Below are positions 7,214 to 37,227 of a stretch of 64,000 bases of DNA, one piece after another. The position numbers and the translations under genes were made by a program. Source of the DNA: Alloascoidea hylecoeti (taxonomy: Eukaryota); the NCBI GenBank assembly GCA_001600815.1, contig BCKZ01000015.1:558001-622000 (forward strand), in the 5' to 3' direction. A model generated the notes under the pieces. The model made no database searches. It saw only the letters and a list, made by a program, of their open reading frames with translations, and was not told the DNA's origin. The stretch's first letter is position 1; each line of letters starts with the position of its first letter.

Positions 7214-8442
7214 TATGAGAAGTTACTGTATAAAAGGCCCTCATTTGATATCTTTTATATTACCAGGATTAATTACCGCTTATCTCCATTGTCACGTGGT
7301 ATTGCCAGACCCGGGCCTGTTGTTGCATATGTGTGTGTGGATAGTATACATCTCAAACTGAAATAAAGTCTCATACTTCTTTTCTTACTTTTGCAATATT
7401 AACGCCAAATCAGGAAAAAATTGTCCAATAATTAGTTATTTAATTAAGTATACATAATTGTTTTTGTATGCTGGGGAGCTCTAGAGCTGTTGTATTTGGC
7501 ATATTTCACAAACTAAATCTAACTAGAGGTAAACTTTACATAAATACAAATCAGCTGTCGGTGTAACTTATTTAATGAATTCACCACAATTAAAATGTTG
7601 CATATCCTTAGTTTCTGGCAAGGAAAATTTGAAAATCTACAGAAAAGAATGCCCTTTTTATAGTTAAGGCCTTATAAATATAGGGAAAAAACAGAAATGA
7701 AGATAACAATAGTTTCATGTGTGAGTGAAAGAAAAGAACTTTGGTAAAAGAACTTTGGTGAAAGAAGAAGAATATATAGATAGGAGGAAATGATTTGTAA
7801 ATTTTGATGATTTTCACACGAAGTGTGACTTTTTTGTAGTAAGTCTCAAGTTAAATTTTTTTTTTTTTAATTGGATTTAAGATTAGTAGAATGACATCCT
7901 TACAGAGAATCATATACAATTTCAAACATTTGGGAATATCTATGAAGTCCAAAAAGTGCTTCTCACGAGAGGTAAATATTAATTTAAATATAAGTAAAAT
8001 GTAGGCGCGTGGAAAGTAAACATTAATATTAACCAAGTGATATTGAGTTCAACCTGCAAAATCCAGACGTATATTTATATGTAGTATCTACTATCTAGTA
8101 ATCAAATAAATAAAGAACTCGTGAACTTCAATATTCAATCCGATACTCCTTTTGGGTCTGAGCGCATTTCTGCGAGTTACTGACACATTTGTTGAATTCT
8201 TCCATTCTTCGATTAAAACATTTTATATCTTCTCTAAGGTATTCGAAAACATTGTATATGGCCTTCATGCTTTCTGAGATCAACTACCGTAAACTATATT
8301 GGATTAAACTCAAGTACCACTAACTCAACTAACTCAATTTATATTGCAATCTCTACCTAGTTACATTGTTTTTAATTCTACAGTTATACCATATAACTTA
8401 TTATAAATCGTCAATATTATGGATATAATCATTGTCCTTCAA

Positions 8443-10245
8443 TTAATTACCTTCCAAAGCATCAGCATTCAAAATATATTCATGAAAGAATGCAATTGTA
8501 TATAAATGCGAAGATACCAAAAGATTCTCATCAACTTTATGAATATTATCATCCCGAGATTTAATTGGCGTAAATCTATAAATATTTTTAGTTAAGGCCC
8601 AATATCTTTGAGTATCTGTATTACCTGTCATCAAAATTGGTGCCATATAAAGAGGTTTGGAGATAATATTACCATCCTGATCTTTCCCAGCTGGAAATGC
8701 AGAAGGTGCAAGATTTTCGTATAGATGACGAACAGTTCCTGCTAATAGGTCCCAAGATTTACCACTTGCTGGAGTTATAGGAGCAGGTTCTAAAGGCTCG
8801 TTAAGCGTAACATTAAAAACACCCTTCGCAATACTGTCCTGTTTAATGATAACTTCCCCATTGTATATAACACCAATCTCATATTTCTTTGCAATTTCAA
8901 CTACATTATCCAAATATTTATCACCGGTTGCTTTAACTGATGATTCAATAGCGATTCGACTATTCATAAGAAGAGTTACCGATTCTGGTAATGCATTAGA
9001 TTTGACACCACCGTTAATAATGTCTGCCGCTTGACTTGTCTTTAAAAGATATCTTGTGTTTCTATTATAATCCATAAAATCGACAACTGCTTTATTCGCA
9101 TCTCTGTCGAGGTGTGCTTTAAGAATATTAGACCTCAACTCCGATGAAATTTCAGTACTATGAACCGCTACACATTGAAGAAAACTTGAGGTGGGGTTGA
9201 TATTTGTTAACCTAGGTTCAAACGGTGTCGATTCAATTACATTAATCAGCTGTGAAACTACTCCTATTGCGGTATGATCAGGTGGGAACGATGAATGTCC
9301 ACCCGCTATATCAAGTGTGATGATTACATTAAGATGCCCTTTCTCAGCAGTTGCTGGTGATGCCAAAATAACACCTCCAACCTCTTCAATACCACTACCT
9401 TCATCAATGATCGCAAAAATTGAATTTTCTCCATACTTTTTCAATAAAAATTGACCTAACAAGTAGGCTCCGTGTTCACCAGAGCTTTCCTCATCAAATC
9501 CAAAAGATAATATAATTGTTCTTTTAGGCTCAAACTTATGATCAACTAAAGCTTCGATGGCTTCCAGCAATCCAATTAAGAGATTCTTACAATCAGATAC
9601 ACCCCTTCCCCAAATTAACTCACCATCGTAATATCCCGAAAATGGAGGATATTCCCATTTGTCATAGACTTTAGGGTCGACAGGAACTGTATCCTGATGA
9701 GCCATTAATAATATCGGCTTCAATGCTTCATCTGAACCTTCCCAAATGAAAATCAAGCCATAAGTGTTAACTTTTTCAACTTTCAAATGCTTGTAAACCA
9801 AAGAGAATGTACGCTCTAGATATTTATGAAAGTCAGCAAATCTGTCCCAACGAGAATCTTCTCCAACATTTCCAGTATCATCATAGCCCTCAGTATTAAT
9901 TTGAACTGCACCAGACAGTTTTTTAATGGATCCATTTTTAAAATCATCATCATATAATATTTTTTGAATTGAGCCATTATAAGCTGGCTTCACAATAGGT
10001 CGAATAGGGCACAATTCATCGTTTAAATTTTCAGATATAGAGTTGGAACCGTAGTTTTTAAGTCTCAACACAGCGGGGTTCACAAACCAGAAAAGTAATG
10101 CGACCAAAAGCAAACCACAAATACAATGAATACGGCTATAAGTGGTCGTCACAGTTGTCTTTTTAATTGGTAGTCTTCCTGATTCATTTGTGATCTGTGG
10201 TTTAATAGTAGTCGGGAGATCCGGATATTCTTGTTTTTGCCCCAT
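8443..10245 (-). CDS. CPS1: Gly-Xaa carboxypeptidase (M20A, Cps1-like), tandem copy 2
   Basis: Same M20 motifs (AHQDTVPV, WGRGVSDCK, GFDEE, GGHSS, TGNTDT). Confidence 0.92.
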   Translation of the reverse strand: MGQKQEYPDLPTTIKPQITNESGRLPIKKTTVTTTYSRIHCICGLLLVALLFWFVNPAVLRLKNYGSNSISENLNDELCPIRPIVKPAYNGSIQKILYDDDFKNGSIKKLSGAVQINTEGYDDTGNVGEDSRWDRFADFHKYLERTFSLVYKHLKVEKVNTYGLIFIWEGSDEALKPILLMAHQDTVPVDPKVYDKWEYPPFSGYYDGELIWGRGVSDCKNLLIGLLEAIEALVDHKFEPKRTIILSFGFDEESSGEHGAYLLGQFLLKKYGENSIFAIIDEGSGIEEVGGVILASPATAEKGHLNVIITLDIAGGHSSFPPDHTAIGVVSQLINVIESTPFEPRLTNINPTSSFLQCVAVHSTEISSELRSNILKAHLDRDANKAVVDFMDYNRNTRYLLKTSQAADIINGGVKSNALPESVTLLMNSRIAIESSVKATGDKYLDNVVEIAKKYEIGVIYNGEVIIKQDSIAKGVFNVTLNEPLEPAPITPASGKSWDLLAGTVRHLYENLAPSAFPAGKDQDGNIISKPLYMAPILMTGNTDTQRYWALTKNIYRFTPIKSRDDNIHKVDENLLVSSHLYTIAFFHEYILNADALEGN

Positions 10246-10885
10246 TTTATTGTAAAAGTTAGAGGAGCTAGTTGGGTGAATTTTGTAAGATAAGACTCAT
10301 TATGCAGTGTGTAGGTCATACCCCCGATAAGGATCCGGAGTTAATTTTATCAACCAGCCAATTCAAATTAATTTTAATACCAAGTTTTTTCGCCTATTTG
10401 CCAATTTGGTTTCCATATAAATTGGCTAGTGATTAGTAACTAGTGATAACTATTAAGTAATATTTTGAAAATTGATGGTAATACGTAGTTGGTTATCTGC
10501 CTATGAACCTCCGAATTTCGCAATTTAATCGAATATAATTTAGCCAAAACGTTTGAGCATAATTGGCCTACAAATATAGAAATATTTAGCGATTTCTTAA
10601 ATTACAGTGTGTTTCGGTAGCTATAGTATTAATTAGCGATTAGTACATGTATTACTGGTAGCTCTTTTTAAGAATTCGATAGATAGTACGTATAACCTTA
10701 TCGGTGCGGACTGCGGAGTCCGGACACTTAATTAATTATACAAAATAAATGGTTCAAATTTCTCAGGCCCCACACGTGTAAAATCTACTTCAAGATAGGT
10801 AGGTGTATGCATATGTATGCTGAAATATTTCCTTATATAGTAATATGTACAGTCGCACTCCAAAAGACACTAGTTCTTATTATAT

Positions 10886-12670
10886 TCAGTAATTATTGAA
10901 ATCATCTGCTGCTAATATATACTCGTAGAAGAAAGCAACTGTATAAATATGAGAAGAAATTAAAATGCTCTCATCAACTTTATGGATGTTATCATCACGG
11001 GCTTTGATAGGTGTAAATCTATAAATGTTTCGAGTGAGATTCCAATATCTTTGAGTATCTGTATTTCCTGTATTGATAGCAGGTGCCATATATATCGGCT
11101 TCGATATAGTGTTACCATCTTTATTCTTGTCTGCTGGGAAAGCTTCTGGGGCCAAATCTTCATATAAATGTCTTACAGTACCAGCTAATAAATCCCATGA
11201 TTTGCCACTTGATGGTGAAACTGGTGATGGTTCTAACGCTCCATCGAGAGTAATATTAAATATACCATTTGCAACGTTATCTTGCTGAATAATAGTCTCT
11301 CCTAAATATTCAACTCCAATATCATATTTTTTAGCAATTTCAATAACGTTATTAAGATACTTTTCACCAGTTTCTTTGACTGACGATTCAATAGCAATCC
11401 GACTATTCATAAGAAGGGTGACTGATTCAGGCAAGGCATTAGATTTAACACCACCATTAATAACATCAGCAGCTTGACTTGTTCCGACAAGATATTTCGT
11501 CATCCTATCAGACCTTATATACTTGATAAGAGCTTCGTTGGAATCTTCATCTAATCCTGCTTTTAGAATATTAGATCTCAGTTTGTTTGAGATATCTGGA
11601 CTGTGAGCTGCTACGCATTGATAGAAATCAAAAATCGGATTAACTTTTGTTAACATTGGATCAAAAGGTGTGGATTCTATTAAATCAACTAGTTGTGACA
11701 CAATCCCAATTGCTGTATGATCAGGAGGGAATGAAGAGTGCCCACCGGCAATGTCTAAAGATATTATGACATCAACGTGTCCCTTTTCACCTGTTGCGGG
11801 TGCTGCAAATACAGCACCACCAACTTCTTGAATACCGTTCACTCCTTCATCGATTAAAGCAAAGATTGAATCTGGGCCATATCTTTCTAGTATGAATTTG
11901 GATAATTGTGTAGCCCCGTATTTTCCTGAGCTTTCCTCGTCAAATCCGAAAGATAAAAGGACTGTTCTTTTAGGGTTAAGTCCATCACCAACCAAACTTT
12001 CCACAGCTTCAAGGATTCCAATCAGAAGATTTTTACAATCGGAAGAACCTCTTCCCCATATAGCTTCCCCGTCACTATATCCAGAAAATGGAGGGTATTC
12101 CCATTGTTCATATACCTTTAGGTCAACAGGAACAGTATCTTGATGAGCAGTCAGCAGTATCGGCTTTAAGCTCTCATCGGAACCTTCCCAGGTGAATAAT
12201 AAACCATAAGTATTAACGGTTTCAACTTTCAGGTGCTTATAAACCAAAGGGAAAGTTTTTTCCAAGTAAACATGGAAATCAGCGAACCTATTCCAACGGG
12301 GATCTTCTCCTACAGGTCCTGTTCCGTCATATCCTTCTGTATTAACCTGAATGGCACCAGCCAACTTTTCAATTGATTTACTTTTAAAAGATTCATCGTA
12401 TAAAATATTTAAAATGGTAGAACTGTTGATATCGGGGTGACCGGAGGGTTTTACAACTGGCCTGATAGGACATATATCACGATTAATGGTTGGGTGTGAG
12501 CAGCCGCCTATAAAATGCCGATAAACAACCAGCAAGAAACCTAAAATAGTAAGAAGGTTCAGAACAGGCTTCCATTGAGATACTTTGGATTTCTTTTCAG
12601 TGCCAATTGAAAGCCCAAGATCAAGTCTTTGGTAATTGCTTAAACGTTCTTGCTTCTCGAGCTCCTTCAT
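10886..12670 (-). CDS. CPS1: Gly-Xaa carboxypeptidase (M20A, Cps1-like), tandem copy 3
   Basis: Same M20 motifs; shares a 131-nt identical tract with copy 1. Confidence 0.92.
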   Translation of the reverse strand: MKELEKQERLSNYQRLDLGLSIGTEKKSKVSQWKPVLNLLTILGFLLVVYRHFIGGCSHPTINRDICPIRPVVKPSGHPDINSSTILNILYDESFKSKSIEKLAGAIQVNTEGYDGTGPVGEDPRWNRFADFHVYLEKTFPLVYKHLKVETVNTYGLLFTWEGSDESLKPILLTAHQDTVPVDLKVYEQWEYPPFSGYSDGEAIWGRGSSDCKNLLIGILEAVESLVGDGLNPKRTVLLSFGFDEESSGKYGATQLSKFILERYGPDSIFALIDEGVNGIQEVGGAVFAAPATGEKGHVDVIISLDIAGGHSSFPPDHTAIGIVSQLVDLIESTPFDPMLTKVNPIFDFYQCVAAHSPDISNKLRSNILKAGLDEDSNEALIKYIRSDRMTKYLVGTSQAADVINGGVKSNALPESVTLLMNSRIAIESSVKETGEKYLNNVIEIAKKYDIGVEYLGETIIQQDNVANGIFNITLDGALEPSPVSPSSGKSWDLLAGTVRHLYEDLAPEAFPADKNKDGNTISKPIYMAPAINTGNTDTQRYWNLTRNIYRFTPIKARDDNIHKVDESILISSHIYTVAFFYEYILAADDFNNY

Positions 12671-21989: not shown

Positions 21990-22830
21990 GTTGTATGAAC
22001 CATTGAATTGCTTGAATGGGAACTGGATTTACGAGAGCATGGATGTCGGGCGGGCGTGTGGGTGTTGCGGTACATAGTAGGGAGGCAGGGCTATGCAGGG
22101 CCGCGTGGATCTGCGAAGCGTTGTGCCCACGTAACGGCAGCTGCATACGAGAGTTGGGCAGAGGAGCAGCGGGGAACCCACGAGGGCTGGAGTGGGGGGC
22201 GCTCGGCAGCACGGGGCCGGGGCGGGCGGGCGGGTCGCAGCTGGAGCGGACGAAAGAGGCAATTTGCATCGGCAGCAGGAATAATACAGAGCGCTAAGCT
22301 TCGAACAATAAGCTACGAGTTTGGAATTCCAGGCTGGCGCAGTGTCGCAGAGCTGCGAGCGAAGGTTCTGTGCATGATAAAGGCTGGTAGACACAGCGCA
22401 GATCGCTATTTGTGCGAGATATACGCACGGTGGCCGGGCAACCGCGTGCATGTAGTAAGTGGCAGCTATACGCTGGTTGCGATTTAAACCCTCCAAATCC
22501 TCCTTTCCTGTTATCATGTCTCCAGATGTTCGCTCCCTACCATTTTAACTCCGCTGCCTCCTCCAAAGACCTCCACGCCGAGGACGACCCGTTCGGGCCT
22601 CTGTCCAGCCTGCCGAGAATGCCCATCCGCATCGGAAACACGTTCGACCCGCTCACGACCTCGAGCTCCTCCTCCAGCACGCAGCGCCAGGTGCTGGGGC
22701 AGCACCAGCACCCCCGGACGTCGGTCTCGTCCATCTGCTCGGAAACGTCGTCCTCGAACTCCATCAAAACCGTGTTCGACCGGGCCAGACGTGGCTCCCG
22801 CGAGGTGTGTTCTTTTGCTCCCCCAGCAAA
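21990..22830. other. GC-rich peak over the haspin promoter and 5' CDS
   Basis: 48/60 G+C at 22201-22260 versus 7/60 at 24721-24780 in the haspin CDS downstream. Boundaries are approximate. Confidence 0.85.
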
Positions 22831-24472
22831 CACCCGCCGCTTCTCATTGATCGATCCTTTTTCCTTTGAAGCACATCCCGCAGCCTCTGATGCTGCAACT
22901 ACCACTTCTCACGCAAGGCGTTCCTCAATCCCGAATCAACTCCCAATCTCAAATTCAAATATTAATCCCAACCTCTTCGTTTCTCCCTCCGAGCTTCTTC
23001 AACAACATTCAAACCAACAATCACAACATTCAATGACTTCAGAACTTAACCTTCAAACCCAAACCCAAAAACATGTGCAACTTCAATCACAAACCCAAAA
23101 TAATAAACATTCAAAGTCGCGATCTTTCAGTCGTCGAAAACTGTCTAAAAAAGTAATTTCCGCCCCACTAGTTAATGAAAACACTACGGCAACAACAATG
23201 GTATTCAGTGGTCAAACCGTTGAACTCAGAGACCTAACTACGGCTCAGAAGGAAAAACAAAAGGAAGCCCTTCTCAGGTTTCAACAGCAACAACAACGCC
23301 AAAAACAAAAACAGAAACACGAGCCAATCTTTAAAGTCAACGCTAATGTTAACCCTAACCCTAATTCAGCTACTACTGTCACTCCCACGTGCTCGTATAC
23401 TGAAACTGAAACAACAACATCTCAAACTAATAATCCAAATATTAATCACGAGCCTTATAAAAAGCATAACCGTTTTCGTAATTCAATATCTTCTCATTCT
23501 AACGTGTTTGGAAAAACTCCTGATGAATCAAATTCTCAGTCTCAATCTCAATCTCAATCTAAATCTCAATCTCAATCTCAATCTCAATCACAACAGGTAC
23601 CTGCAATTGGTATTAGACCTTCACATGAACAATTAAAAGTAAATACTTCTCCTAAAAAATCTTCTAAAAAGTTATCTGATATGAGAAAATCATTAATGTC
23701 TTTTTCTTCAAATTCTTCTAAATTTAGATTATCTCATTATTCTTCAATTACTAAAACTAATACTCTTATTGATGATTCTGCTAATAGAAGAAGAACCATT
23801 CAACCTTCAAGATCCGCTACTTCTAGTAGTATTAATTCTTACACTTCAAATTCAAATTCACCTAATTTAGACAAAACTATGATCTCATTACCTGTTCCAA
23901 TAAACACTTCAAGAGAAAAACTTAATAATAAATTACGTGCAAGTAATTCTTTATTATCACTTAGTTATTCAAATTCAAATTCAAATTCAAATTCAAATTC
24001 AAATTCACATACAAATAATAATCATAGTGGTGGTACATCTCCAATTATAACTTTTGAACAATCAATGCAACAACATTTAGATTTTTTAATGAAATCTCTA
24101 TTAAATCTTTGTAATTCAAATGAAATTTTAAATTTTACTGATTTTTTAAATTCACGTAAATCAAATATTTCAAATACAAATTCAAATTCAATTCATATTT
24201 CAAAATTATCTGAAGCTAAATTTAGTGAAGTTTATTTAGAACAAATATTAGATTCTTCTTTAACTTCAAATGGTGTAAATAAAAAAGTTTTAAAAGTTTT
24301 ACCTTTTGGTAATGATTCTTTAGATCAAATTGAAATTCAAGATATTATTCAAGAATTAACAATTGGTAGACAATTAACTGATACAAATGGATTTGTTAAT
24401 ATGATTGAAGCTTATGTTGTTAAAGGGAAATACCCTGATGAATTAATTAGACTTTGGGATAGATATAAAAAA

Positions 24473-24505
<33 letters not shown>

Positions 24506-25666
24506 TCTCAACAACAATCAACAAGATTTGAAAAATATAGACCTGATTATTATCAATCTGATCAACATTATTGTATTATTATTATGGAAGATGCTGGTTT
24601 AGATTTAAAAAAATTTCAATTAACTTCTTGGAATCAAGCAAAAATTATATTTTGGCAAGTTGTTCAATCTTTATCTGAAGCTGAAAAAAATTTTCAATTT
24701 GAACATAGAGATTTACATTGGGGTAATATAATTATTAAACCTAAAAAAATAATTAATTCAAATAATAATAATAGAATTTATATTAATAATGACAATATTG
24801 ATGATGAAAATATTGAAGTAACTTTAATTGATTTTACATTATCAAGAGCAAATTTTAATGGTATGGTTATATTTACTGGTTTAGATCATCCTGAATTTTT
24901 TAGAGGTAAAGGTGATTATCAATTTGAAGTTTATAGAATAATGAGACAATTACACACTAATACACAACATTTAACAAATAATAATAATTCTAATAGAAAT
25001 AATCATAATAATAATCAACAACATGGACATTCAACCGCATCATCTCCAGCTGTTTCAACTTATTCATTTGCTTCATCTGTAAGTACAAGTCCAAGCATAA
25101 CTAGTATGTCTTCAATTGCAACTGCTGGTAATAGACTATCAAGTATTGAATGGTCTGAATTTTGTCCACAAACAAATGTTTTATGGTTACACTATTTACT
25201 TGATAAATTATTAAATCATAAAGGATTATCAAAGGGAAGATCAATGAATTCTCCATCTCATCCACAATTACAATTACCTTATAAATCAAATAATTCAAGT
25301 ATTCTAAGTTCTAAAAATTCTTCTCAAAGTCTTCAATCAATATCTGAAACAATAATGGAATCAAGTCTTGATTACGAAATTTCAACAAAAGAATTATTAA
25401 TTTTGGAAAATTTAGAATATATTTATAAATGTTTAGATCCATCAAGATCATCTAAAAAAAATAAAAAAATGTCAATGCCATTACCATTACCATTATCATT
25501 ATCAAATCGTGATAATTATTATAATATTCATCATCATAACAGTAATCATTTTAATAATAATAATAAGAAAAAAAAATCAAAAAAAAATTCAAATGATCTT
25601 ACTTTTCAAGATTTTAATTCTGCAAATGATATTTTAGAATGGGGGAAAAAAAATCAATTTTGTTAA
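22526..25666 (+). CDS. ALK1: Haspin-family kinase (Alk1/Alk2-like)
   Basis: C-terminal haspin kinase domain with FEHRDLHWGNI, IDFTLSR, FRGKGDYQFEVYRIMR and PQTNVLWLHYL; long low-complexity N-terminus. The first ATG is at 22526 (the track start at 22412 is GTG). Confidence 0.9.
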
Positions 25667-25732: not shown

Positions 25733-26558
25733 AAACTCTTCTTTTTATTTATATTCTTATTTTTTTTATAGGATTCTTTTATTATTATTGGGTCTTTATT
25801 TTTAAAACTATATATATTTTATTGACTTTTATATCGCTAATCGTTTTCAAATCCCTTTATATTCAATTTTGTTACTTTAGTTGGAGATGTTTTCTTTTTA
25901 TACCCAAATGTATTAATAAACTATTCTTATATATATATCAATTGCGGTTGCAATAATCACAGCGCATATATACTGTATACTTATATATATTTCTCTTCTG
26001 TTATGCTCTTTAAAGCTTATAATATTTTATAAATTCGCTCTTTATTTGTTTTTGAACAGCTAATTTAGTTTATATAATTAGTGGCTATTTTAATTTTATA
26101 TGATATTATTTAGAATTTCTATAAACTTGTAAAGTTATAACCAATAATATATTATTAATTCGTTTTCCACTCTAGATCTCGAGCTCATTTTAACTGTGTG
26201 AAGTTGCGAACTCAGTAATTAAGCTTGCCTGATAATAAATATATGCAAGATAGTTGCAACATTATCATGGAAGCGATTAGAATATTAGAGATTTCCTATT
26301 TTACAATAATATGGAATTTAATAAATATAAATAAAAAAATTATATTAAAATATATTAAAATATCAAGAAAAAGATAAAATTATAACCGTTTATAGTGATT
26401 CAACCATCAAACCTCGGAGTTTTAATTAAGCGTTAGCTCTATAATGACCAATGTTCCAATCTGTAAACCAATATATTTCAGCTGTAACCATTATGTTGTA
26501 AAGTTGAAAAGTTATAGTAAAGAAAACCAAGAAATGGATGTAAAAAGAGAAAGTATAA

Positions 26559-26660
26559 TTAAACAATAACACATGTCCATGGAATCATTCCACCCAAGTA
26601 ATTAACGGCAGCCTTATTGGTGGCGATAGATTTTGAAATTTGTTCTTGAGTATTAGGCAT
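26559..26660 (-). CDS. MFA1: a-factor-type farnesylated mating pheromone precursor, 33 aa: MPNTQEQISKSIATNKAAVNYLGGMIPWTCVIV
   Basis: Below the ORF-track cutoff. Ends in CAAX (CVIV-stop). A polar propeptide ends in Asn before Tyr, as in S. cerevisiae a-factor (DN/YIIKG). Predicted mature peptide YLGGMIPWTC. A at -3 and TATATAAG about 93 nt upstream; next to STE3. Confidence 0.85.
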   Translation of the reverse strand: MPNTQEQISKSIATNKAAVNYLGGMIPWTCVIV

Positions 26661-26752: not shown

Positions 26753-26844
26753 CTTATATAGTGATTTTTTATTTGTATTAGACTATATATTTTATATATG
26801 ATTCCTTTGGTTCCTTAATGTGGAACAGAATAGCTTACATGTAA
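26753..26844 (-). promoter_or_regulatory. Putative pheromone-gene promoter: TATA box, imperfect Mcm1-like site and a CATGTAA palindrome
   Basis: TATATAAG at 26753-26760 (- strand); GTTCCTTAATGTGGAAC at 26810-26826; TTACATGTAA at 26835-26844. Factor assignments are inference. Confidence 0.4.
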
Positions 26845-27150: not shown

Positions 27151-27321
27151 AGTGATCCAAATATCAAACCTTGGAGAAAAAAAATGTTAACTCTATAACG
27201 ACCAATGTTCCATTCCGTTTAAAACTAATGAAAAGTATACTGTGTATATTTTTATTTTGTTGTAAGATTAAAAAGTAAATAGTAGTAGACGAAGGCCTAT
27301 TCATGCTGACAGATTTTGAAA
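27151..27321 (-). pseudogene. Degenerate tandem duplicate of the pheromone gene (propeptide remnant plus 3' flank); mature peptide and CAAX deleted
   Basis: 27151-27285 aligns to 26394-26520. 27288-27321 (gacgaaggcctattcatgctgacagattttgaaa) aligns to 26604-26638 (aacggcagccttattggtggcgatagattttgaaa), which encodes SKSIATNKAAV. Confidence 0.7.
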
Positions 27322-27788: not shown

Positions 27789-29261
27789 TTAGTTGGATAA
27801 AGGTTTATTAGCACTCTCGTTGATATCAACAGTACTATTTAATCTCACCTCATATGAGAACTCATATAATCCACTGTTTTCTCTTGTTGTGTCCTCATTC
27901 TCATATTTTGGCAAAACGTGGCTTAACGATTTTGACCTTCGCTTTGGATTTGCAACTGTTCCAATAATATTTGAATATCTTGGTTGAGTGTCTAAGGAAC
28001 GTCGAACAATAATCTGACCTTCATCTTTATAATTATTGCCGTCGCTAATTGGTTCGGCCCAAAACTTGGATATCGTTGAAGTTGTTAAATTAGAGTTGGC
28101 GGATTGAACTTTGACTTCTATCTCACTCTTTTTAGAATCTGATTCAATTTCTATTTCAAAATTGCTTTCTTGAGCTCCAAAAATATCGTCATCATCATGC
28201 GCCAGAATGGCCAAGTCACCTGCCATTTTCATGTATGCTTCAATATCCTGATATTCATGTGTATTATGTTTTATATCTTGCTCTTTGTTTCGTTTTTCGT
28301 CTCGTTTCTGGTCAAAATGCTGTATTATAGATCCAAACCCAATATAACAAAGACCATTCTTATACATTTTCACAGCATCAGATCCAAGACCAAAAAGAGA
28401 GAATGAAATGACAGCTATGACAAAGTAAATCCATCTATCAACCTGTGGGCGATCTGTGTCAATAAACAATATGTACTTCCAGAATAAATTGGAAAGGAAT
28501 TTATTATCATCTAACACTGACCTGCCCGAGTGAAGCTGAATATAATCAGCAGTTTCTTTGGCTTGTGATATAAAATTATATAGAGAGAGAGGCAAAGTCA
28601 CAGCAATGATGACGAAACAGAATATCAAAAGCCTTATAAACTGTACTGTACTTAAACTTGAGTATGTACAATGAAGAATGTCCTTGAAGTCTTTTCGTTT
28701 TTTGAAGTATAGTACTAGAGTCAAACATGAATAAACAACACTAACAAGGGAAACTACTACTTGCCAAACTGCATAGAGTAGTAATGATTTTAAATTTATA
28801 AAATATGTGAATTGGCATCCGCTATATCTTAGAATCAAGTAACGTGATTTCTCAACCCAGTAGACAACGATAATTGTGTAGACAGGAAATAGAAAACAAA
28901 TAATTAAATCAATTAGGTTCTTTTTCCATTTTACCATGGCCAGTCCAGTTGTAGATACTGAAGTAATGAGATATAACTGTCGGCAAATTGCGAGGACAGC
29001 GGATATCACACCTACTTGAAAAGCAGCCTGTAATCTTATCATTATATCACAATAGATATTTCCATTAAATGAGTTTGAGAAAGTCTCTAAATTTCCCCAT
29101 ATCATATCGTCAATAAAAGTTTTCAAGCACATAATCATGATCCAAGCGATCAAGCAGATAGCTGGAATATTTTTATTGTTTAAATGCCAAACTAATGGTG
29201 GTATGCATATAAGAACGCCGAGTAAAGAAAGAAACCCCAATAAAATTTGAAAATTGATCAT
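27789..29261 (-). CDS. STE3: a-factor pheromone receptor (class D GPCR)
   Basis: Intact 7-TM ORF with Ste3 hallmarks PPLVWHLNNKNIPAICLIAWI, YCDI, SRYLILRYSGC, RKDFKDILHCTYSSLSTVQFIRL and FGLGSDA. Confidence 0.96.
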   Translation of the reverse strand: MINFQILLGFLSLLGVLICIPPLVWHLNNKNIPAICLIAWIMIMCLKTFIDDMIWGNLETFSNSFNGNIYCDIMIRLQAAFQVGVISAVLAICRQLYLITSVSTTGLAMVKWKKNLIDLIICFLFPVYTIIVVYWVEKSRYLILRYSGCQFTYFINLKSLLLYAVWQVVVSLVSVVYSCLTLVLYFKKRKDFKDILHCTYSSLSTVQFIRLLIFCFVIIAVTLPLSLYNFISQAKETADYIQLHSGRSVLDDNKFLSNLFWKYILFIDTDRPQVDRWIYFVIAVISFSLFGLGSDAVKMYKNGLCYIGFGSIIQHFDQKRDEKRNKEQDIKHNTHEYQDIEAYMKMAGDLAILAHDDDDIFGAQESNFEIEIESDSKKSEIEVKVQSANSNLTTSTISKFWAEPISDGNNYKDEGQIIVRRSLDTQPRYSNIIGTVANPKRRSKSLSHVLPKYENEDTTRENSGLYEFSYEVRLNSTVDINESANKPLSN

Positions 29262-30969
29262 AGTTGATAGTGAAATCTATCTATAAAATATTTTTCAAAA
29301 GAGAATAGAAGATAATAAATTAGCAGTTCTTTGTATTTTATGACATTTTGGATCGACCTATACTGCTCCTAATCCAGCTTTGAACAAGATCGGAGTTAGT
29401 ATTTGAAACCGTTTAACCTTAATACTTTAACTTTGTAACTAAAATTTAGATAGGGCTTCTTCTCTCTCTGGACACTTATAAGTTACTATAACGGTGTCTA
29501 ATTGTAATTAGAGTTGCATGCATATTCAGTGCCAACTTTAGATCTAATTGAGTCTTATGGATATGGATAGTCAATTGTCAGTTGTAACTGTTCGTAAGTT
29601 TAGAATTATCTAGAACGAGGTTAAATGAAAAGAAATAGATCCTAAAACTAAAGGTAGAACCCGGATGAATAGTTTTCTTCATTACTCCACAACCACACAA
29701 TGGCAAAAGGAACCTCAGAGCTCTTGAATCAAGAGATAAGGGGGTTAAGATACTAAAAGCCATGACAAGAAGTTTATGGCATTAAGGGTGTCTAAAAAAC
29801 GTACGCTACCAGATTTTCACCACAGGTGAGGGAAAATCAAAAATCAAAAATTAAGACATTCGTACTTTTCAAAACTTTTCTAAAAATGTAAAACCCTTAA
29901 ACCTATGTATTTTCACATATTGTCAAATGGCAACTAGGTAATGCCATCTTCAGGTGCTCTATGTATAGCAGTATGATCAACTCCTTCTTTCCATGTTAAG
30001 TTGGGTCTTAGTGGCCTCATCTTCTTCCGCTGACATCACAGTGATCAACCGCACGGTTTCTTCATGGGTGGTTTATCAATTGGTAATTATTAAAACTGCC
30101 TTCCTCCAACACATACTTAATTACAAGAACGTTCACTATTAAATAATCTCTACACACACATTTATAATATACTGTAGACGGCATATGGTACTTGTATATA
30201 TGAGTTAGGATATAAGCTTGTAGATATGTGCTTGGATACCACACAGACTAAAAAACACAACATATATACAATTATAAATACTATCACCAAAATCTATTTA
30301 ATCTTATATAATCCCTAAAAATATTTGATGGGGGGTTGGAACAACCGGAATCCATCTATTTAATACCCAGGTGTTTTTATCAAAATTCTGAGATGCTTGA
30401 GTAGGCGAAAAAGAGGTAGAATTAACTTTTATATAAGGATAACCTGAGTGATCGAAGATCCCCTAAAAACTATTCGAAGTGGCATCAGACTTCTAAGAGG
30501 GGAACTGAACTAATTAAACACAATTCTCCGGAGATAAAAAAGAAACCTGTATGTCGGAAGGTTGAAGCTAGTGAGCTCAATACGTTAAGTCGTAAAAGAA
30601 CGTTCACACCCCAACGTTTAATAATATATATATATATATATATATATTATCAGGATTATTAGATCAATTAGATTTCAGTAATACTATTTTCGGTAATTGA
30701 CATTTGCTGCTAATTTTGCAATTCGTGGTTGAAATGTAACAGTTTTGGGCTACTAGATAAATTAATCCTCCTCCGTACCTTAGTCTGACGCTATTAGAGT
30801 GGTTGAGTCTTATTAAGCATAACATTAGCAGTAAAACAAGAGCCGCCGTACGTTCCTACATATAACTTTTGTAAGAGACCTGATATTAGATTGATGAGGG
30901 TGTCATCTCAAAGCTGAATAACGAAATTATCCGCTAGAATCAAGACGAATTAGTTTTGTGAAAAGAAGG

Positions 30970-31182
30970 AGGCCATGTTTTTCACCTGAACTAAATCCAA
31001 TTGAGCGTATTTGAAATCTCCTCATGAAGGTCCATCGCAAGGCCGAAATTGCGAGTATTCATTTCTACACGTTAATAATCTGATTGAGTGCTCCATATTA
31101 AAATTGGTCGAGGATCCAGAGTTGCATGCCTCGTAGGGTGTCAGCCGTCTATGGCGTTAAGGGGCCAACGACTAAATACTAG
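30970..31182 (+). mobile_element. Tc1/mariner (DDE_3) transposase C-terminal relic
   Basis: RPCFSPELNPIERI*NLL (compare WPxxSPDLNPIExxW) and MPRRVSAVYGVKGPTTKY* (compare MPRRxxAVIxAKGGxTKY). Confidence 0.85.
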
Positions 31183-32139
31183 ATTTAAATTTTCATTTAC
31201 TTAGTATCTACGAAACGTTATTTAAAGGTAGTTTAAGTTAAAGCCTTGTGGAGTGTTTAGCGGCTCGCATATTGTGATTGTTTTTTGGAGATGTCTGAAA
31301 AAAGATGCAAGTTGCTCCTTTATTCAGGTTTATAAAACAATGCGATAATATGTCTGAGAGCATTGCAATATATAATACAACATTAGTATCACTAGTGCTA
31401 TACCTAAGAGTCCTTTCAAAAGTATACCAATTTCTTGTAATAAGTTCCCAGCTGGATCCGTTAATATTGATACCATAGTCTAAGTATAAAGAAGCGTAAC
31501 TTTAGACTTGACGTAAAGTTGAGAGTTTTCAATTTCAATTATGAAATAGAAACTGTAATTGTTTTAAAAAAACGAACTTAAGAAATTTATATTAAAAAAA
31601 TTAATAAAAAAGAAAATATTCCCTTGCTTCTTCTTTAAACTAATTTCCTTTTCTGAACAATCATAACAGAAAATAATGTAAAACACTGAACAAAGGTCCC
31701 AACCAAAAAGGTATTTTAAATGAAATATGCCATAAAAGTATCTATTCCTGTATTTTAAAGGACTTACGCTTAACATACATTTTAATAATTCACACCCAAT
31801 TTGGTTCTAAATTGAAACTTTCACTCTAACTTCGAATGCGACTTATAATTCAGAAAAGTATTTATATTCCTTATCTATTTTCTTTTGGCTCAATCTCTAA
31901 AATAGTTCTTCTATAACTTTCCAATAACTCTCAATATCAATCTCATTATTATAGTATTGCAAGCATTCAATTCACTTCTAAATTATGAACAAACATCAGA
32001 ATTGACTGTGTCTCGGGATGAAGGTGCAGGAAGTGAGGAGTCGACGTTAATATTAATGATATCGGTGAACTTGATGCTAAAATACAGACTATTCGCTTAT
32101 ATTTTTATTTCCTTATAAACTTAGCTGGTTACTTTTTTG

Positions 32140-32905
32140 ATGTTTACGTACATATATATGCTTAGATACTTAATATAGATCGTACAAATGAAGTAAATAT
32201 TGGGAACTTTTCAAGATTACACTCTAGATATCGATATATGCAAATCTATATCTGCAGTATTTTCATAAAATCCCATATTTGACAAGTTGTGAATATAATT
32301 GGAGGAATAACATTTATTTTTAGGGTTGATTTTAGTATAGTCTCTATAACGCGCCTAAATTCTTCAGAGTTGTGGTTTGGGGGACAATTCTTTAGCATAT
32401 ATTGCTTAAGTTTGAATATTAGGAATCCTTGAAACTTTGAATTGCAATTGTGAGTCTCGACAAATTGGATATCAGCACTTAGAAGTTCAAGAACCCCATA
32501 ACAAATAATTTCTATAGCACAAGAAATCTCCCGCATTTTCTTTCTTAAGAGATTCTGAATTATATTGTCAATTACATTTATAATATGAATGATATCTAAA
32601 CATTTTCTGAAAATATTTTCCGATTGTAATTTCAAAGGATGTTTTATAAGTATATTATCAGAAGCAAGCTTAAATTTGTACCCAGACTTTAAGAACTTTT
32701 CATAAAAGTATTGTATTAACTGTTGTGTTCCAAGTTTTGGGGAACTGGATTTTAGAAGCTCGCACATTGCTTGAACTATTTCTTGCTGCTGCATATCCAA
32801 GTTACCTTTTATTAATACTTGGAATGATGTGTAGTCATCGAGAAGAACCTCCTTCAATTCATGGTGCGAAAATCTTATTTTGCAATTGATATCAATATGA
32901 TTCAT
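32140..32905 (-). mobile_element. Probable hAT-superfamily transposase relic
   Basis: A 219-aa ORF containing PLKLQSEN..IIHII, followed after frameshifts by YLECNLEKFPIFTSFVRSILSI*A, which resembles the hAT C-terminal dimerisation motif (FPxLxxxARxxLxIPA). Confidence 0.5.
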
Positions 32906-33442
32906 AATAATTATAAAGAATAAAAAATTGTTGTGAACCGCTGAAATGTGTAGAATATAATAGCTATAGAATCCTATATCCTTTTATATATAAACAAAGT
33001 GTGTCATCATAGTTAGAGCTTAAGGATTGTAGCCGCGTATATACCTTTCCATATCCATTTATCACTTTAATTAAATGGGTTATCAATAGCTAGAGTTTCT
33101 GGTATTTGTTTCATATTTGGCTACCTTTTCAATTTACGATGGCTTTATAATTCCATGCATTTGTCAATTTTGTCTGATTTCGATCTGAAACAGAGATACG
33201 CAAAAAACAATTTATAGTTTATAATTAAAACGTCGGTCACACGACGGTTATAATTACCTACCGGTATAAGTTAAAACAATAATATAAATTTACTGTAATA
33301 TTAATCGCTGACGAGAAATACATAACATTAGAGAGGTCAATATGTCAAAAAAAATTATTAATATTAGTAATATGCCTAGTAATATTTAGTATCTTGGAAG
33401 TCATAGGACACTAAAAGCACAATCTAATTTAATTATTTCGTC

Positions 33443-33550
33443 TTTTTTTTTAAAAAAAAACAGCGGTTGAATGATCAAAGTCTTTTAAATATGATTATTC
33501 TATTAAATTCTGGGAAATGAAATTCGCTTTTAGGGGGGGGGGGGGGGGGG
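33443..33550. repeat. T9A9 palindrome (33443-33460) and G18 homopolymer (33533-33550)
   Basis: Direct read. Confidence 0.9.
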
Positions 33551-34251
33551 CATCCAGGGAGGACAAAGGGGCCTGAAAGAAGCGGAATAAGTGTTTAATG
33601 ATGGCCGCGAAGATAACATTTTCCACGAATTTTGTTAGGCTTTGGAGTAGCAAGAAGGACGGTATTTTCAATAGCTTGCGTTGGTCTTCAAACGGGACAT
33701 AGTCGTCAAATTGACATTCAATATGTTTCTTTAGAGGGTCACAAGAGCAGTTTCTCGGGTTCTTGTCAGACTTTTTACTATTTGGATCATAATATTGAAG
33801 ATGACCACCAGTCCCCAACTGTACCAGCATATTGATTGTCTTTCATTTCTCTGCTTTTAATGGTGTACAATTTACCAGTTACGTCCTTGTCAAACTTGCC
33901 ATTTCAATTTTGTCATAATCTTATCTGATATTAATTTCAAATCTTGGATTTTGAGTTCAGTAGAGTTTAGTCTCCCGTTTTAATCCATCGTGAGAAGTTG
34001 ATAATGAGATATAATATTTTGAATGGACTAATAGGATTATTTCCCTCGATGCTCGTGTATTACCGCAAGAATCTAATGAGAATTGTGTTCAATCGTAGAT
34101 CCATTGCTATTTTAGGCTGGAACTTTCATTGACTTGAAATAATGGCACCTAAAATAACCTTATATACAAAATACATATTACAGAAGTATCTATTAAGATT
34201 GGTGTCCGCGCCTATCTTTCTTTCTTCAAATTCCACTCACAAATATTTATA

Positions 34252-35296
34252 ATGGAACGATATTTGGAATCATTGGAGAATTTTATCGGTGCTGTCTGGG
34301 ATCATTGTGAACCAGAACATGGTCAGAACAGTGCTTATCCTATTTCAATAAGAGATATGAACAAACAGTTTCACAAAACTTTGAAAGTTCTTTCGGACAA
34401 ATGAATTAAACGTAATAAATGGTACTCCGGTTGATAAAAGACATTTAAGATCTAAAAGTGCAATATTTAAATTCCAATTTAAAGACTTCTCAATTGGTAC
34501 TCTAAGAAAAATTAAGAAAAAGGATAAATCTAGGTTTTACAAATATACTTCTCGTCCTTATGTTCCTGAAAAAACAACAAGTCCCATATATTTAAGTGAA
34601 ATTGCACGGTCAAATCCAAATTATTTGTCTTTCCCTCCACAAAAATCTTTATCCACGTCTGATCTTTACTCAATTAGTACTAAGGCTCTGTCAAGATAAA
34701 ACGATTTTCGACAGATATGCTTTCTTTAAACTCAAAGACGTATTCAAACGATTTTAAAAGCCTTTTTAAAAGATTATCACGTTCTCGGTCATTGAATTCT
34801 TCCAATTATCCCAAATTGCGTAAGGTGGTGTCAGATGAGGGAAAAGCAATAGTTCAAAGATGTACAGGTTCTAATAATCATAAATTTAACTTGGAGAATA
34901 TAGAATTTGAGGAATTACAAGGTTTTAAAGGTTTATCGATAGCAAGAAATGGATCTATTTTTCCTTCTTTTTCTTCACTTTTATTCTCATCATCATCAGT
35001 GACAGAAATTGATTCTTCTTTACCGTCAGTACGAGGTAATAATTGTGATTTCACCAATATTGATCGAGACGGTCAAACAAGAATTATATGAATCACGACA
35101 TGCAATAACTCCAGAACATGAAAATGAAATATCATCATTAAAAAGTAGTCCAAATAATCATACTTCACCTCTGATAATTTCTTTAATTGGTTATGAACCA
35201 CAGGTTCGGGATAACATTGAATCTTCTTATAATATGATTCAATCAAATCTTTGCCCTATTAGTTTAGATAATTTTCTTTCGGCGGAAGTTCCTTAA
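34252..35296 (+). pseudogene. Decayed about 1-kb ORF of unknown family
   Basis: ATG at 34252 (MERYLESLENFIGAVWDHCEP..), then successive long open stretches in shifted frames (ELNVINGTPVDKRH..; track ORFs 34717..35091 and 35009..35296). Confidence 0.45.
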
Positions 35297-35349
35297 CTAC
35301 CCAAGGCACCACAATAATGTCAGGATTGAAACCTTTAGTTGATTATAGT

Positions 35350-35544
35350 GAAAATGTTGAAAATGTTGAAAATGTTGAAAATGTTGATTTTGATTTTGTC
35401 GATTCTGTCGATTCTGTTGATTCTTTTTATTCTTTTTATTCTTTTTATTCTTTTTATTCTTTTTATTCTTTTTATTCTTTTTATTCTTTTTATTCTTTTT
35501 ATTCTTTTTATTCTTTTTATTCTTTTTATTCTTTTTATTCTTTT
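35350..35544. repeat. Compound 9-bp minisatellite: (GAAAATGTT)4, GATTCTGTY units, (TATTCTTTT)13
   Basis: Direct read; accounts for three spurious overlapping ORFs. Confidence 0.95.
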
Positions 35545-35789
35545 AATTATGTGCATGGAATTGCGTTGATTTTCTTGGTTGTCTTGATTATGGTGATCAA
35601 AAAAGTCAGGATAATTGTTATGAACTTATGATAATTTAGAGTACGCAAGTGATATCTTTTTTTTCAAATGAATAATAATTGCTAGGTACAGATGCTGTTA
35701 GTTGTATGGGTAAGTTATACATTAAAATAACCACCAAGATTATCAAAAATAAACAATGAGTTCACTACATATTTTGTTCTTATCCTAAT

Positions 35790-36732
35790 ACTTTCTGATA
35801 ATATATTTTTAGTCGTTCTTTTGTTTTCAGTTCAAAGTTGGAGGGCTTCTTCTTCGTTTTTACCCCATTTTTGATCGTATTTATCTAGAATGCAATAAGT
35901 TTTCCTCTTTGCCATGTCATCACCGATTGCTGAAATCTCATTGTTCATCTTTGATTTTCCTCACCTGCTACTACTCTTAATTGTTTCATTTCGCTTTCCA
36001 AGAATTCGTGTTTAAGGGTTTGTTGATCGCTCGTGAACTTTAAATCCGGAATGGGTCTCCGCATATTGTGAGTTTTTAGCCATTCTGTTCGCCCAAAGAT
36101 TTAGTTTTCGATAAAATTCCTTTCAAATTCTTCATCGAGCTTAAGCAAATGATCTTTTTGTTGAACATGTGGGATGATATCTTCAACCTAATTAAGGACG
36201 GCTTTGCTGTAGGCAATTCCATCTATCTACTGTCCCACGTGTAACCAACTGAAATCACGATTTATCACATTCGAAGTAATGAATTCCGGCTGATGATGAT
36301 TTTCGGCCACTAAGATTACCATCTCTCGAGGTCGTCTTTGTTAGAGGTGAGGAACGATATCGATACTTATGAATTTTGATAGTGATCCCTGGATTCCGCT
36401 TCAGAAAGTCAATCTATCAATTAGCGCTCAGATAATGGCCGGTAGGGTCGTTCTTGGTTGGTTTTTTGATAAGCCATCATCCTCCAGATCTTCTGGTCCA
36501 CCAACTAACCGACTAAACAATAAAACATTTTTCAGTTGGTCGCTAGCTCCATTTTTGTATAATAAAGTACCAAGTTCGGAGATTCTCTTCGGCATTAGTC
36601 AAATTTGGAGCGCTTCTTTAGCTGCTTATCTGGATTCTCTATCGTTGAATTAGAGTTTAACAGGTTAAACCCGACATCCCTAAAAACCTGGCTGAGTAAT
36701 GAGTTCGACTGAAAACGACTTCTTGCTATCAT
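35790..36732 (-). pseudogene. Decayed ORF with weak RNase III/dsRBD-like similarity
   Basis: One frame reads ..LPAII*ALIDRLTF*SGIQGSLSKFISIDIVPHL*QRRPREMVILVAENHHQPEF..LHVGQ*IDGIAYSKA.. over about 230 codons with scattered stops. The family call is weak. Confidence 0.35.
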
Positions 36733-37227
36733 GTAATTGTATTAAATTGGGACGAAAATAGAGAATGAATTTGTTACATGAGACTAATACAATTAGTGTT
36801 ATCTTGTCAAAATGCACTATAATATCTAGTTAATGGTCTATTGCTTGGCTAAGCTCACTGCATAATTATAAGCTCAAGATCTTTGCAATCGAAGAAGAGT
36901 TTATAAAGCATATATATATGATGTTATGAGGTAGAAAGAAGATGATATTGAAAGTAAACTAACTTATTAGTAATGTGGGATAATAGTGCAACATAGTATT
37001 GAACATACATGTACCATACATGTACCATACATGCATAATTAATAATTATATCTCTACGAATCATAGAACTGTAGACCAAATTTACGATATTGACAAATTT
37101 AAACTTAAATTCAACATTAGCACGTGACAAATACAACAGCCATACACCCATTATTATGTAATGAAATCCAATCATCGCACAGTTAAAATTTAAACGATTG
37201 AACCAAACTCCATTTATTTATAGTAAC

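What the first reader, a model, noticed from the sequence alone, without database searches (positions are those of the whole stretch)
26559..26660. Unannotated 33-aa a-factor-type pheromone precursor
Seen: the minus-strand ORF MPNTQEQISKSIATNKAAVN-YLGGMIPWTC-VIV-stop, with a TATA box and good start context. Known: a-factor precursors are short, end in CAAX and are cleaved after Asn. Inference: the mature pheromone is YLGGMIPWTC-farnesyl methyl ester. It is too short for standard annotation and absent from the ORF track.
Basis: partly seen in the sequence, partly recalled or inferred. Interest (0 to 1): 0.85.

Follow-up and report, generated by a model that had tools for sequence, protein, structure and literature searches.

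The report
Yeast pheromone gene next to receptor
A tiny overlooked gene very probably makes this yeast's fatty-tailed mating pheromone, and unusually it sits right beside one of two receptor genes for that kind of pheromone, while the receptor for the other mating pheromone could not be found in this genome.

Summary
The 33-codon ORF (26660→26559, minus strand) is as described: Asn-Tyr junction, 10-residue hydrophobic core, CVIV-stop, two TATA boxes, A at −3. The CAAX alone is chance-level (43% of shuffled windows have one), but it was the only one of 89 CVIx-stop sites examined genome-wide with the full feature set. The genome has a second STE3 (48% identical, sister in trees, in a duplicated block), MATα1 only, and no STE2 by four sequence searches and one motif search, while a 31–32%-identity STE3 control was found. 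Against a simple loss of the α axis: one MFα-shaped Kex2-repeat precursor exists, though its peptide (KELASLDIVID) is unlike α-factors, and no second lipopeptide was found. Verdict: MFa-type pheromone gene, ~0.87, untested experimentally (no RNA, no relatives). Most novel reading (~0.25): a budding yeast that replaced Ste2 by a second Ste3, with a basidiomycete-like receptor–pheromone pair.

The parts
26559..26660 (-). 33-aa a-factor-type (MFa) pheromone precursor ORF
   Evidence: single intact copy in genome
26571..26600 (-). predicted mature peptide Tyr21-Cys30 (YLGGMIPWTC), after Asn20; S-farnesyl methyl ester inferred (monoisotopic 1357.72 Da; 1425.78 if geranylgeranyl)
   Evidence: sequence; N-X rule from Srikant preprint; masses
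26559..26573 (-). CAAX box CVIV plus TAA
   Evidence: CVIV scores like CVIA in a Ras-based yeast heat-map score, 16.97 vs 16.81, non-processed CASQ 4.87
26753..26798 (-). two TATA boxes (26798-26791, 26760-26753)
26368..26512 (-). 3' flank of the gene, duplicated about 757 bp upstream
   Evidence: 75% over 97 nt, E 5.6e-10; only these two copies found in the genome
27128..27321 (-). decayed tandem copy: 29-nt remnant of the N-terminal coding part (27293-27321, 22/29 identical) abutting the duplicated 3' flank; mature-peptide/CAAX part absent
   Evidence: 7 of 4965 random zones score as well
27789..29261 (-). intact STE3 pheromone receptor, 490 aa, 7 hydrophobic segments, same strand, 1.1 kb upstream of the pheromone ORF
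   Evidence: PF02076 E 3.6e-76; best outside relatives 34-40%
22526..25666 (+). haspin kinase gene, convergent downstream neighbour (boundary of the locus)
   Evidence: PF12330
29300..37200 (.). gene-poor stretch upstream of STE3, full of dispersed repeat remnants, with one orphan 219-aa ORF (32905-32246)

Best explanation
The ORF is this budding yeast's MFa gene. Inferred pathway, by analogy with S. cerevisiae: the 33-aa precursor is farnesylated on Cys30, VIV is removed, the Cys is methylated, the N-terminus is trimmed and finally cut after Asn20 by an Axl1/Ste23-type insulinase, and YLGGMIPWTC-farnesyl methyl ester leaves through a Ste6-type ABC exporter to activate a Ste3 receptor on the partner cell. 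It is most likely made by a-type cells, so probably silent in the sequenced strain, which shows only MATalpha1. It sits directly downstream of one of two anciently duplicated STE3 genes and was once tandemly duplicated. Shown: ORF, motifs, neighbour, duplication, candidate processing and export genes. Inferred: expression, lipid type, cell-type specificity, which Ste3 reads it (the unlinked C10 copy is slightly favoured, as it carries two perfect Ste12 sites like the alpha-side genes).
For: Unique full feature set among 89 CVIx-stop sites and among the 73 matches of a Met...Asn-aromatic...CAAX pattern (43 of them screened by eye for frame and stops). Polar pro-region (GRAVY -0.65) and hydrophobic core (+0.74). 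Adjacent STE3, chance about 3e-4 for a given gene. Decayed tandem copy, fitting the duplication-and-loss behaviour of MFa genes (PMC4629796 passage). ORF unchanged in a contig from an independent 2020 metagenome run X3 that differs nearby by 1 substitution and a 16-bp deletion (weak, near-identical strain, flagged as possibly not independent). Three long insulinase-family genes and an intact 1372-aa full-size ABCB transporter with one canonical intron (Ste6 orthology not established).
Against: CAAX-ending short ORFs are common by chance (100-700 N...CAAX candidates per yeast genome). No homologue or second intact copy; no related species available to test conservation. No perfect TGAAAC[AG] in 700 bp upstream. 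Lipid and cleavage site rest on S. cerevisiae rules.
Confidence: 0.87

Rival explanations
1. Extension of the best reading: STE2 is really lost in this lineage and the window's STE3 paralogue has taken its place as the receptor of the cell type that makes this pheromone, so receptor and pheromone form a co-regulated, basidiomycete-like pair. Its ligand would be a second, still unfound lipopeptide or the acidic peptide of the MFalpha-shaped Kex2-repeat gene.
For: Two intact STE3, 48% identical over 329 aa, sisters with 98/93 and 100 support. STE2 not found by Pfam, three divergent STE2 proteins (the first hits all 168 other STE2s by blastp at 74.7 bits or more) or a motif, while a 31-32% identical lichen STE3 finds both STE3. 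Perfect Ste12 sites occur upstream of C10 STE3 (2), the Kex2-repeat gene (2) and MATalpha1 (1) but not upstream of the window STE3 or the pheromone ORF; background: 5 of 20 window genes have one or more, 1 of 20 has two.
Against: No convincing second lipopeptide gene found (86 of 186 matches and 23 of 123 unseen; intron-split genes and other CAAX classes missed); the C10 STE3 has none within 67 kb. An MFalpha-shaped precursor exists, which normally implies a Ste2. The STE3 pair lies in a duplicated block, so its retention needs no special cause. The assembly has gaps (3,355 N in 67 kb of C10) and only one mating type.
Confidence: 0.25
2. Ordinary ascomycete system: STE2 exists but is missing from this assembly, too diverged (co-evolving with an odd alpha peptide), or carried in the unseen MATa idiomorph; the STE3 pair are redundant or subfunctionalised duplicates and the mobile MFa gene merely landed beside one of them (possibly sharing regulatory DNA).
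For: MFalpha-shaped gene with signal peptide, six KR-EA/EP sites and two Ste12 sites, the only such repeat in the genome. MFa genes are highly mobile: 19 locations in 23 species. Many other old paralogue pairs in this genome. No STE2-positive control genome could be run through the same search.
Against: All 169 STE2 proteins collected cross-detect easily and the search found a 45-bit MATalpha1 match and a 31% STE3; the repeat peptide has no aromatic residue or proline, unlike alpha-factors as I recall them; chance adjacency to STE3 is about 3e-4.
Confidence: 0.45
3. STE2 and alpha-factor signalling have been lost or repurposed without replacement (one-pheromone mating or reduced sex); the Kex2-repeat gene is a non-mating secreted-peptide precursor (KEP).
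For: STE2 not found; Ste13-signature KEPs unrelated to mating exist (PMC6339444 passages); STE2 losses occur in single Leotiomycete species (PMC10569646 passages).
Against: Both STE3, the MFa-like gene, a Ste6-like exporter and MATalpha1 are intact; the KEP promoter has two Ste12 sites.
Confidence: 0.2
4. The ORF is a chance CAAX-ending frame in AT-rich intergenic DNA.
For: 43% of shuffled windows hold a C[VIL][VIL]x short ORF; TATA-like words are frequent upstream (8 in 1.1 kb); no homologue or transcript.
Against: 1 of 89 with the full feature set, STE3 adjacency, tandem remnant, pheromone-like composition.
Confidence: 0.1

Closest known systems
Saccharomyces cerevisiae MFA1/MFA2; Komagataella phaffii MFA1/2; Yarrowia lipolytica MFA1-4 (a-factor precursors)
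   Same: Short precursor (33 aa vs 36-40), CAAX, cleavage after Asn before an aromatic/uncharged residue, mature peptide within 9-17 aa; copy turnover.
   Different: No sequence homology (no Pfam hit); one intact copy; X residue Val; directly next to an STE3 gene; in Saccharomycetaceae STE2 and STE3 are single-copy except two STE2 in V. polyspora.
Basidiomycete P/R mating-type locus (Ustilago maydis a locus: mfa plus pra/STE3)
   Same: STE3-type receptor gene and lipopeptide precursor side by side; two STE3-type receptors; no STE2 found.
   Different: Here both STE3 are in one haploid-looking assembly as old paralogues rather than alleles; second STE3 has no linked pheromone; mating type appears set by a separate MATalpha1-SLA2 locus; an MFalpha-shaped gene remains. 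The two STE3 group within yeast-type receptors, so this is not shown to be ancestral synteny.
Pneumocystis carinii ste3 cluster
   Same: An ascomycete in which a potential pheromone precursor was reported in the ste3 region (review PMC5871698, passage).
   Different: Taphrinomycotina; cluster of signalling genes (Ste20, Ste12), which is not seen here; primary paper not read.
Engineered symmetric mating in S. cerevisiae (Goncalves-Sa and Murray 2011)
   Same: [quoted passage not shown]
   Different: Paper not held; content recalled; a natural example is unproven here.
KEX2-processed repeat proteins (KEPs) with Ste13 signature
   Same: The gene at G000:C15:~390,100-390,500 has signal peptide plus KR-EA/EP repeats.
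   Different: Peptide not found in the supplements of the two KEP surveys searched; whether it is the alpha-factor or a non-mating KEP is open.

Membership tests
Ascomycete a-factor (MFa) precursor | Short ORF (<100 aa) without signal peptide | tested here: met
   33 aa, polar N-terminus
Ascomycete a-factor (MFa) precursor | C-terminal CAAX that is prenylated and processed | tested here: met
   CVIV-stop; published yeast heat-map score equal to CVIA; chemistry itself not tested
Ascomycete a-factor (MFa) precursor | Asn-X cleavage site 5-20 residues before Cys, X aromatic or uncharged | tested here: met
   Asn20-Tyr21, 10-aa product; Asn15 is followed by Lys
Ascomycete a-factor (MFa) precursor | Mature peptide conserved in paralogues or close relatives | tested here: inconclusive
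   No intact paralogue; decayed copy lacks this part; only a near-identical strain seen; no relative available
Ascomycete a-factor (MFa) precursor | Processing and export genes present (Axl1/Ste23, Ste6) | tested here: inconclusive
   Three insulinase-type genes and an intact full-size ABCB found; orthology not established; Ram1, Ste14, Ste24, Rce1 not searched
Ascomycete a-factor (MFa) precursor | a-specific, pheromone-induced expression | not testable with these tools
   No RNA run holds the stretch; no perfect Ste12 site upstream
Ascomycete a-factor (MFa) precursor | Required for mating; activates Ste3 | not testable with these tools
   needs bench work
Basidiomycete-type P/R locus | STE3 receptor and lipopeptide precursor tightly linked | tested here: met
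   1.1 kb apart, same strand
Basidiomycete-type P/R locus | No Ste2/alpha-factor axis | tested here: inconclusive
   STE2 not found (control 75) but an MFalpha-shaped precursor is present
Basidiomycete-type P/R locus | Second receptor with its own lipopeptide | tested here: not met
   C10 STE3 has no CAAX ORF within the 67 kb examined; no convincing second lipopeptide elsewhere, searches incomplete
Basidiomycete-type P/R locus | Locus is allelic and determines mating type | not testable with these tools
   Only one mating type seen; MATalpha1 lies on another contig beside SLA2

The most novel reading that the evidence does not exclude
A budding yeast that has naturally abandoned the Ste2 receptor: after an ancient duplication, one STE3 copy took over as the receptor of the opposite cell type and became linked to that cell type's lipopeptide gene, giving a basidiomycete-like receptor-pheromone pair in an ascomycete; its ligand is either a second lipopeptide or, more strikingly, the unmodified acidic peptide from the MFalpha-shaped gene.
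Probability: 0.25. Interest if true: 0.88.

Novelty: new variant of a known kind. Interest (0 to 1): 0.63.

Why it matters
At minimum it supplies the a-factor of a deep, isolated yeast lineage, the sort of species for which the published multi-copy/conservation sieve leaves no way to pick the right candidate; the neighbouring receptor does the picking. If the STE2 absence holds, it breaks a rule stated for the whole Ascomycota (one farnesylated and one unmodified pheromone, read by Ste3 and Ste2) and gives a natural system in which to ask how a GPCR duplicate gains a new ligand and how basidiomycete-style receptor-pheromone linkage can arise. Everything is directly testable: two receptors and two short peptides in a standard S. 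cerevisiae reporter.

Tried and rejected
Paralogues of the peptide: protein search gave only itself; the PWxC[VI][VI] pattern gave 12 matches (control 6), none other ending in CAAX-stop. Pfam, NCBIfam and the ESM Atlas gave nothing for the peptide or the 219-aa ORF. RNA: no RNA holder listed; run X8 and runs X4, X5 laid only scraps on the stretch, which says nothing either way. Idea that the C10 STE3 has its own pheromone: none in 67 kb. Second lipopeptide: only weak candidates (C8:359604-359527 in the MAT gap, 25 aa, CVIL, no TATA; L235). First alpha-factor pattern found nothing but was too narrow: it missed the Kex2-repeat gene later found. KR-[ED][AP]-[ED][AP] hits were cell-wall proteins or chance. 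STE2 profile over the about 0.9 Mb of this genome fetched: no hit. Idea that the window is the MAT locus: rejected, MATalpha1 is on C8 beside SLA2; no a1/alpha2 homeodomain among 7 matches and no a2-sized HMG recognised among 22 matches, of which 10 loci were read. Shared promoter words between mating genes: nothing convincing. Complex prediction not run: a 10-residue lipidated partner is outside what the tool can score. STE3-MFa linkage in other yeasts was not tested. The species was not identified; trees lack several deep yeast lineages. Literature: no report of this peptide, of two STE3 without STE2 or of STE3-MFa linkage in Saccharomycotina in searches (open-access library only); the Srikant preprint's candidate table and its figure of missing mating genes in 332 genomes could not be seen (bioRxiv supplements closed, journal version not held) and may already list this ORF or the STE2 gap.

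Full report
Observation. The ORF is there as written: window 26660 to 26559, minus strand, MPNTQEQISKSIATNKAAVNYLGGMIPWTCVIV-stop, with A at -3 and TATA boxes at -138 and -100. It is absent from the 15-billion-protein collection while its neighbours are present, and has no Pfam, NCBIfam or Atlas match. The window is from a 24.8-Mb, 136-contig budding-yeast assembly (G000:C15:558001-622000); its STE3 is only 34-40% identical to the best outside relatives. I did not identify the species.

Is it more than chance? The CAAX alone is not: 1 of 386 short-ORF stops in the window ends C[VIL][VIL]x, against 0.54 in shuffles; 43 of 100 shuffles have one, 15 of 100 one with a suitably placed Asn. The Srikant preprint (10.1101/2021.09.28.462209; abstract, passages, two of three parts of Results and supplementary legends read) finds 100-700 N...CAAX candidates per yeast genome. 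The combination is rarer. A genome-wide CVI-x-stop pattern gave 123 matches (control 90); 100 were listed, 11 ended in TGG and were dropped, 89 were examined: 15 had an in-frame Met, 5 also an Asn-X site, and only this ORF also had a TATA box and a purine at -3 (the last two filters were chosen knowing the candidate). A broader A-x-A-ATG...Asn-aromatic...CAAX pattern gave 73 matches; 30 were translated by script, 43 screened by eye for frame and stops with 2 fetched, and none rivalled it. The pro-region is polar and the 10-residue core hydrophobic. CVIV has the same Ras-based heat-map score as a-factor's CVIA in a yeast screen (16.97 vs 16.81; unprocessed CASQ 4.87; PMC10320760, supplement rows and passages), and Val is not among the X residues (L, F, M, I) that paper links to geranylgeranylation.

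Context. The next gene upstream, 1.1 kb away on the same strand, is an intact STE3 a-factor receptor (29261-27789, PF02076 E 3.6e-76, seven hydrophobic segments); downstream is a convergent haspin kinase. A given gene would fall within 2 kb of either STE3 with probability about 3e-4; a loose candidate with 0.03-0.23. Between STE3 and the ORF lies a decayed tandem copy: the 3' flank recurs 757 bp upstream (75% over 97 nt, E 5.6e-10, only two copies found), preceded by 29 nt matching the N-terminal coding part at 22 positions (7 of 4965 random zones do as well); the mature-peptide part is gone. MFa genes are known to duplicate, move and vanish (PMC4629796 passages). No intact paralogue was found. 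A metagenome contig (run X3) carries the ORF unchanged, with two differences in the flank; this is a near-identical strain and weak evidence.

The rest of the mating system. The genome has two STE3 genes. The second (C10:99455-101107, 550 aa) is 48% identical over 329 aa; the two are sisters in trees of 38 and 30 proteins (98/93; 100 after leaving out two long branches and seven near-duplicates), though several deep yeast lineages are unsampled. They lie in a duplicated block with two more paralogue pairs, and other old pairs are common in this genome, so the duplication was probably segmental or genome-wide. The C10 copy has no CAAX ORF in the 67 kb examined. MATalpha1 lies on C8 beside SLA2; no a1/alpha2 homeodomain or a2-like HMG gene was recognised, so the strain looks MATalpha. 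Three insulinase-type proteases and an intact 1372-aa full-size ABCB exporter are present, orthology unproven.

STE2 was not found: not with Pfam PF02116 (no positive control rang), not with three divergent STE2 proteins at E up to 10, not with a recalled helix-7 motif allowing one mismatch (28 matches, control 51, none in an STE2-like frame). To judge sensitivity I collected 169 STE2 proteins: four tested score 222-305 bits on the Pfam model, and the query detects all 168 others by blastp at 74.7 bits or more. In the same genome search a 31-32% identical lichen STE3 found both STE3 and a 45-bit MATalpha1 match was caught. So an ordinary STE2 is unlikely to be in this assembly; but the assembly has gaps, withheld stretches read N, and only one mating type is seen.

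Against a clean loss of the alpha axis: one gene, at C15:~390,500-390,100, has the build of MFalpha: signal peptide and six KR-EA/EP sites releasing mostly KELASLDIVID (119 aa). It is the only tandem KR-[ED]-[AP] repeat of period 36-97 nt in the genome and has two perfect Ste12 sites upstream. Its peptide lacks the aromatic residues and proline I recall from alpha-factors, and Ste13-signature repeat proteins with other roles exist (PMC6339444 passages); it was not in the supplements of two KEP surveys. Perfect Ste12 sites also precede the C10 STE3 (2) and MATalpha1 (1) but not the window STE3 or the pheromone ORF; 5 of 20 other window genes have at least one and 1 of 20 has two, so this is only a hint that the linked pair is regulated apart from the alpha-side genes. 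No convincing second lipopeptide gene was found; these searches were incomplete (86 of 186 matches unseen, other CAAX classes and intron-split genes not covered).

How it most likely works. By analogy with S. cerevisiae and K. phaffii (PMC5993090 passages): farnesylation of Cys30, removal of VIV, methylation, N-terminal trimming, final cut after Asn20, export by a Ste6-type pump, activation of Ste3 on the partner. All steps are inferred. The gene is probably a-specific and may be silent in the sequenced strain, so a negative RNA-seq result from that strain alone would not refute it. Which Ste3 reads the peptide is open; in basidiomycete P/R loci the linked receptor reads the partner's pheromone, not its neighbour's (PMC5871698 passages), which would make the C10 copy its receptor.

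Comparison and novelty. It works like, and on every testable sequence feature belongs with, ascomycete a-factors; conservation, expression and activity are untested. It resembles a basidiomycete P/R locus in linkage only: the second receptor has no linked pheromone and allelism is untested, so I do not file it there. The stated ascomycete paradigm is that pheromone and receptor genes lie outside MAT and that one pheromone is farnesylated, the other unmodified; STE2 and STE3 are single-copy across Saccharomycetaceae bar one STE2 pair. A potential pheromone gene near ste3 was reported in Pneumocystis and STE2 is missing in a few Leotiomycetes (PMC10569646 abstract and passages). Searches found no report of this peptide, of STE3-MFa linkage, or of two STE3 without STE2 in a budding yeast; PMC12424943 and PMC11185758 do not mention STE2, STE3 or pheromones in their main text. 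The Srikant candidate table and presence/absence figure could not be seen and may bear on priority.

Verdict. Real a-factor-type gene, 0.87. For the missing STE2: hidden, diverged or in the MATa allele 0.45; lost and replaced by the linked STE3 0.25; lost without replacement 0.2; the ORF itself spurious 0.1. Interest 0.63; new variant of a known kind; 0.88 if the receptor-replacement reading holds.

Noticed in passing
G000:C15:~390,100-390,500 (-), L330:1320-1679: 119-aa secreted Kex2/Ste13-repeat precursor with six KR-EA/EP sites releasing KELASLDIVID-type peptides; two perfect TGAAACA upstream; next to an APC15 gene; the only MFalpha-shaped gene found.
   Followed up: partly
G000:C10:99455-101107 (+), L008:2455-4107: Second intact STE3 (550 aa), divergent from a 627-aa orphan ORF and followed by an SSB-family gene; two Ste12 sites in a 335-bp promoter.
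   Followed up: yes
G000:C8:357,400-373,000 (L013-L015): MAT locus: MATalpha1 (381 aa) convergent with SLA2, preceded by an 11-kb gene-poor gap with repeat remnants; no alpha2 found. A weak 25-aa CVIL-ending ORF lies in the gap (359604-359527).
   Followed up: partly
window 32246-32905 (-): Orphan 219-aa ORF 3 kb upstream of STE3, with TATA box and two perfect Ste12 sites; no Pfam or Atlas match; might be a pheromone-induced gene.
   Followed up: partly
window 29300-37200: Dispersed repeat remnants at 67-90% identity to dozens of places in the genome, including a 2-kb element also at C15:204-206 kb, and a 9-bp tandem array near 35,400-35,550.
   Followed up: partly
window 54518-57313 and 60182-61504 vs G000:C10:103,687-109,456: SYP1-like muniscin and an orphan gene have old paralogues beside the C10 STE3; with pairs of PHO2-, CUP9-, HMO1-, ROX1-like and trehalase genes (35-73% identity) this hints at an ancient large-scale or whole-genome duplication.
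   Followed up: partly
window 5438-12670 (-): Three tandem M20 carboxypeptidase (CPS1-like) genes.
   Followed up: no
G000:C3:1,478,000-1,522,000: Cluster of several large ABC-transporter frames, one open frame of 3066 aa.
   Followed up: no
G000:C4:1116155, C6:448763, C8:947357, C11:502199: Four paralogous long HMG-box proteins with an insertion inside the box; three ABF2-like double-HMG genes on C11.
   Followed up: no
G000:C10:76,100-79,500: 3,355-base N gap next to a repeated segment that also starts at 84,821: the assembly has unresolved gaps.
   Followed up: no
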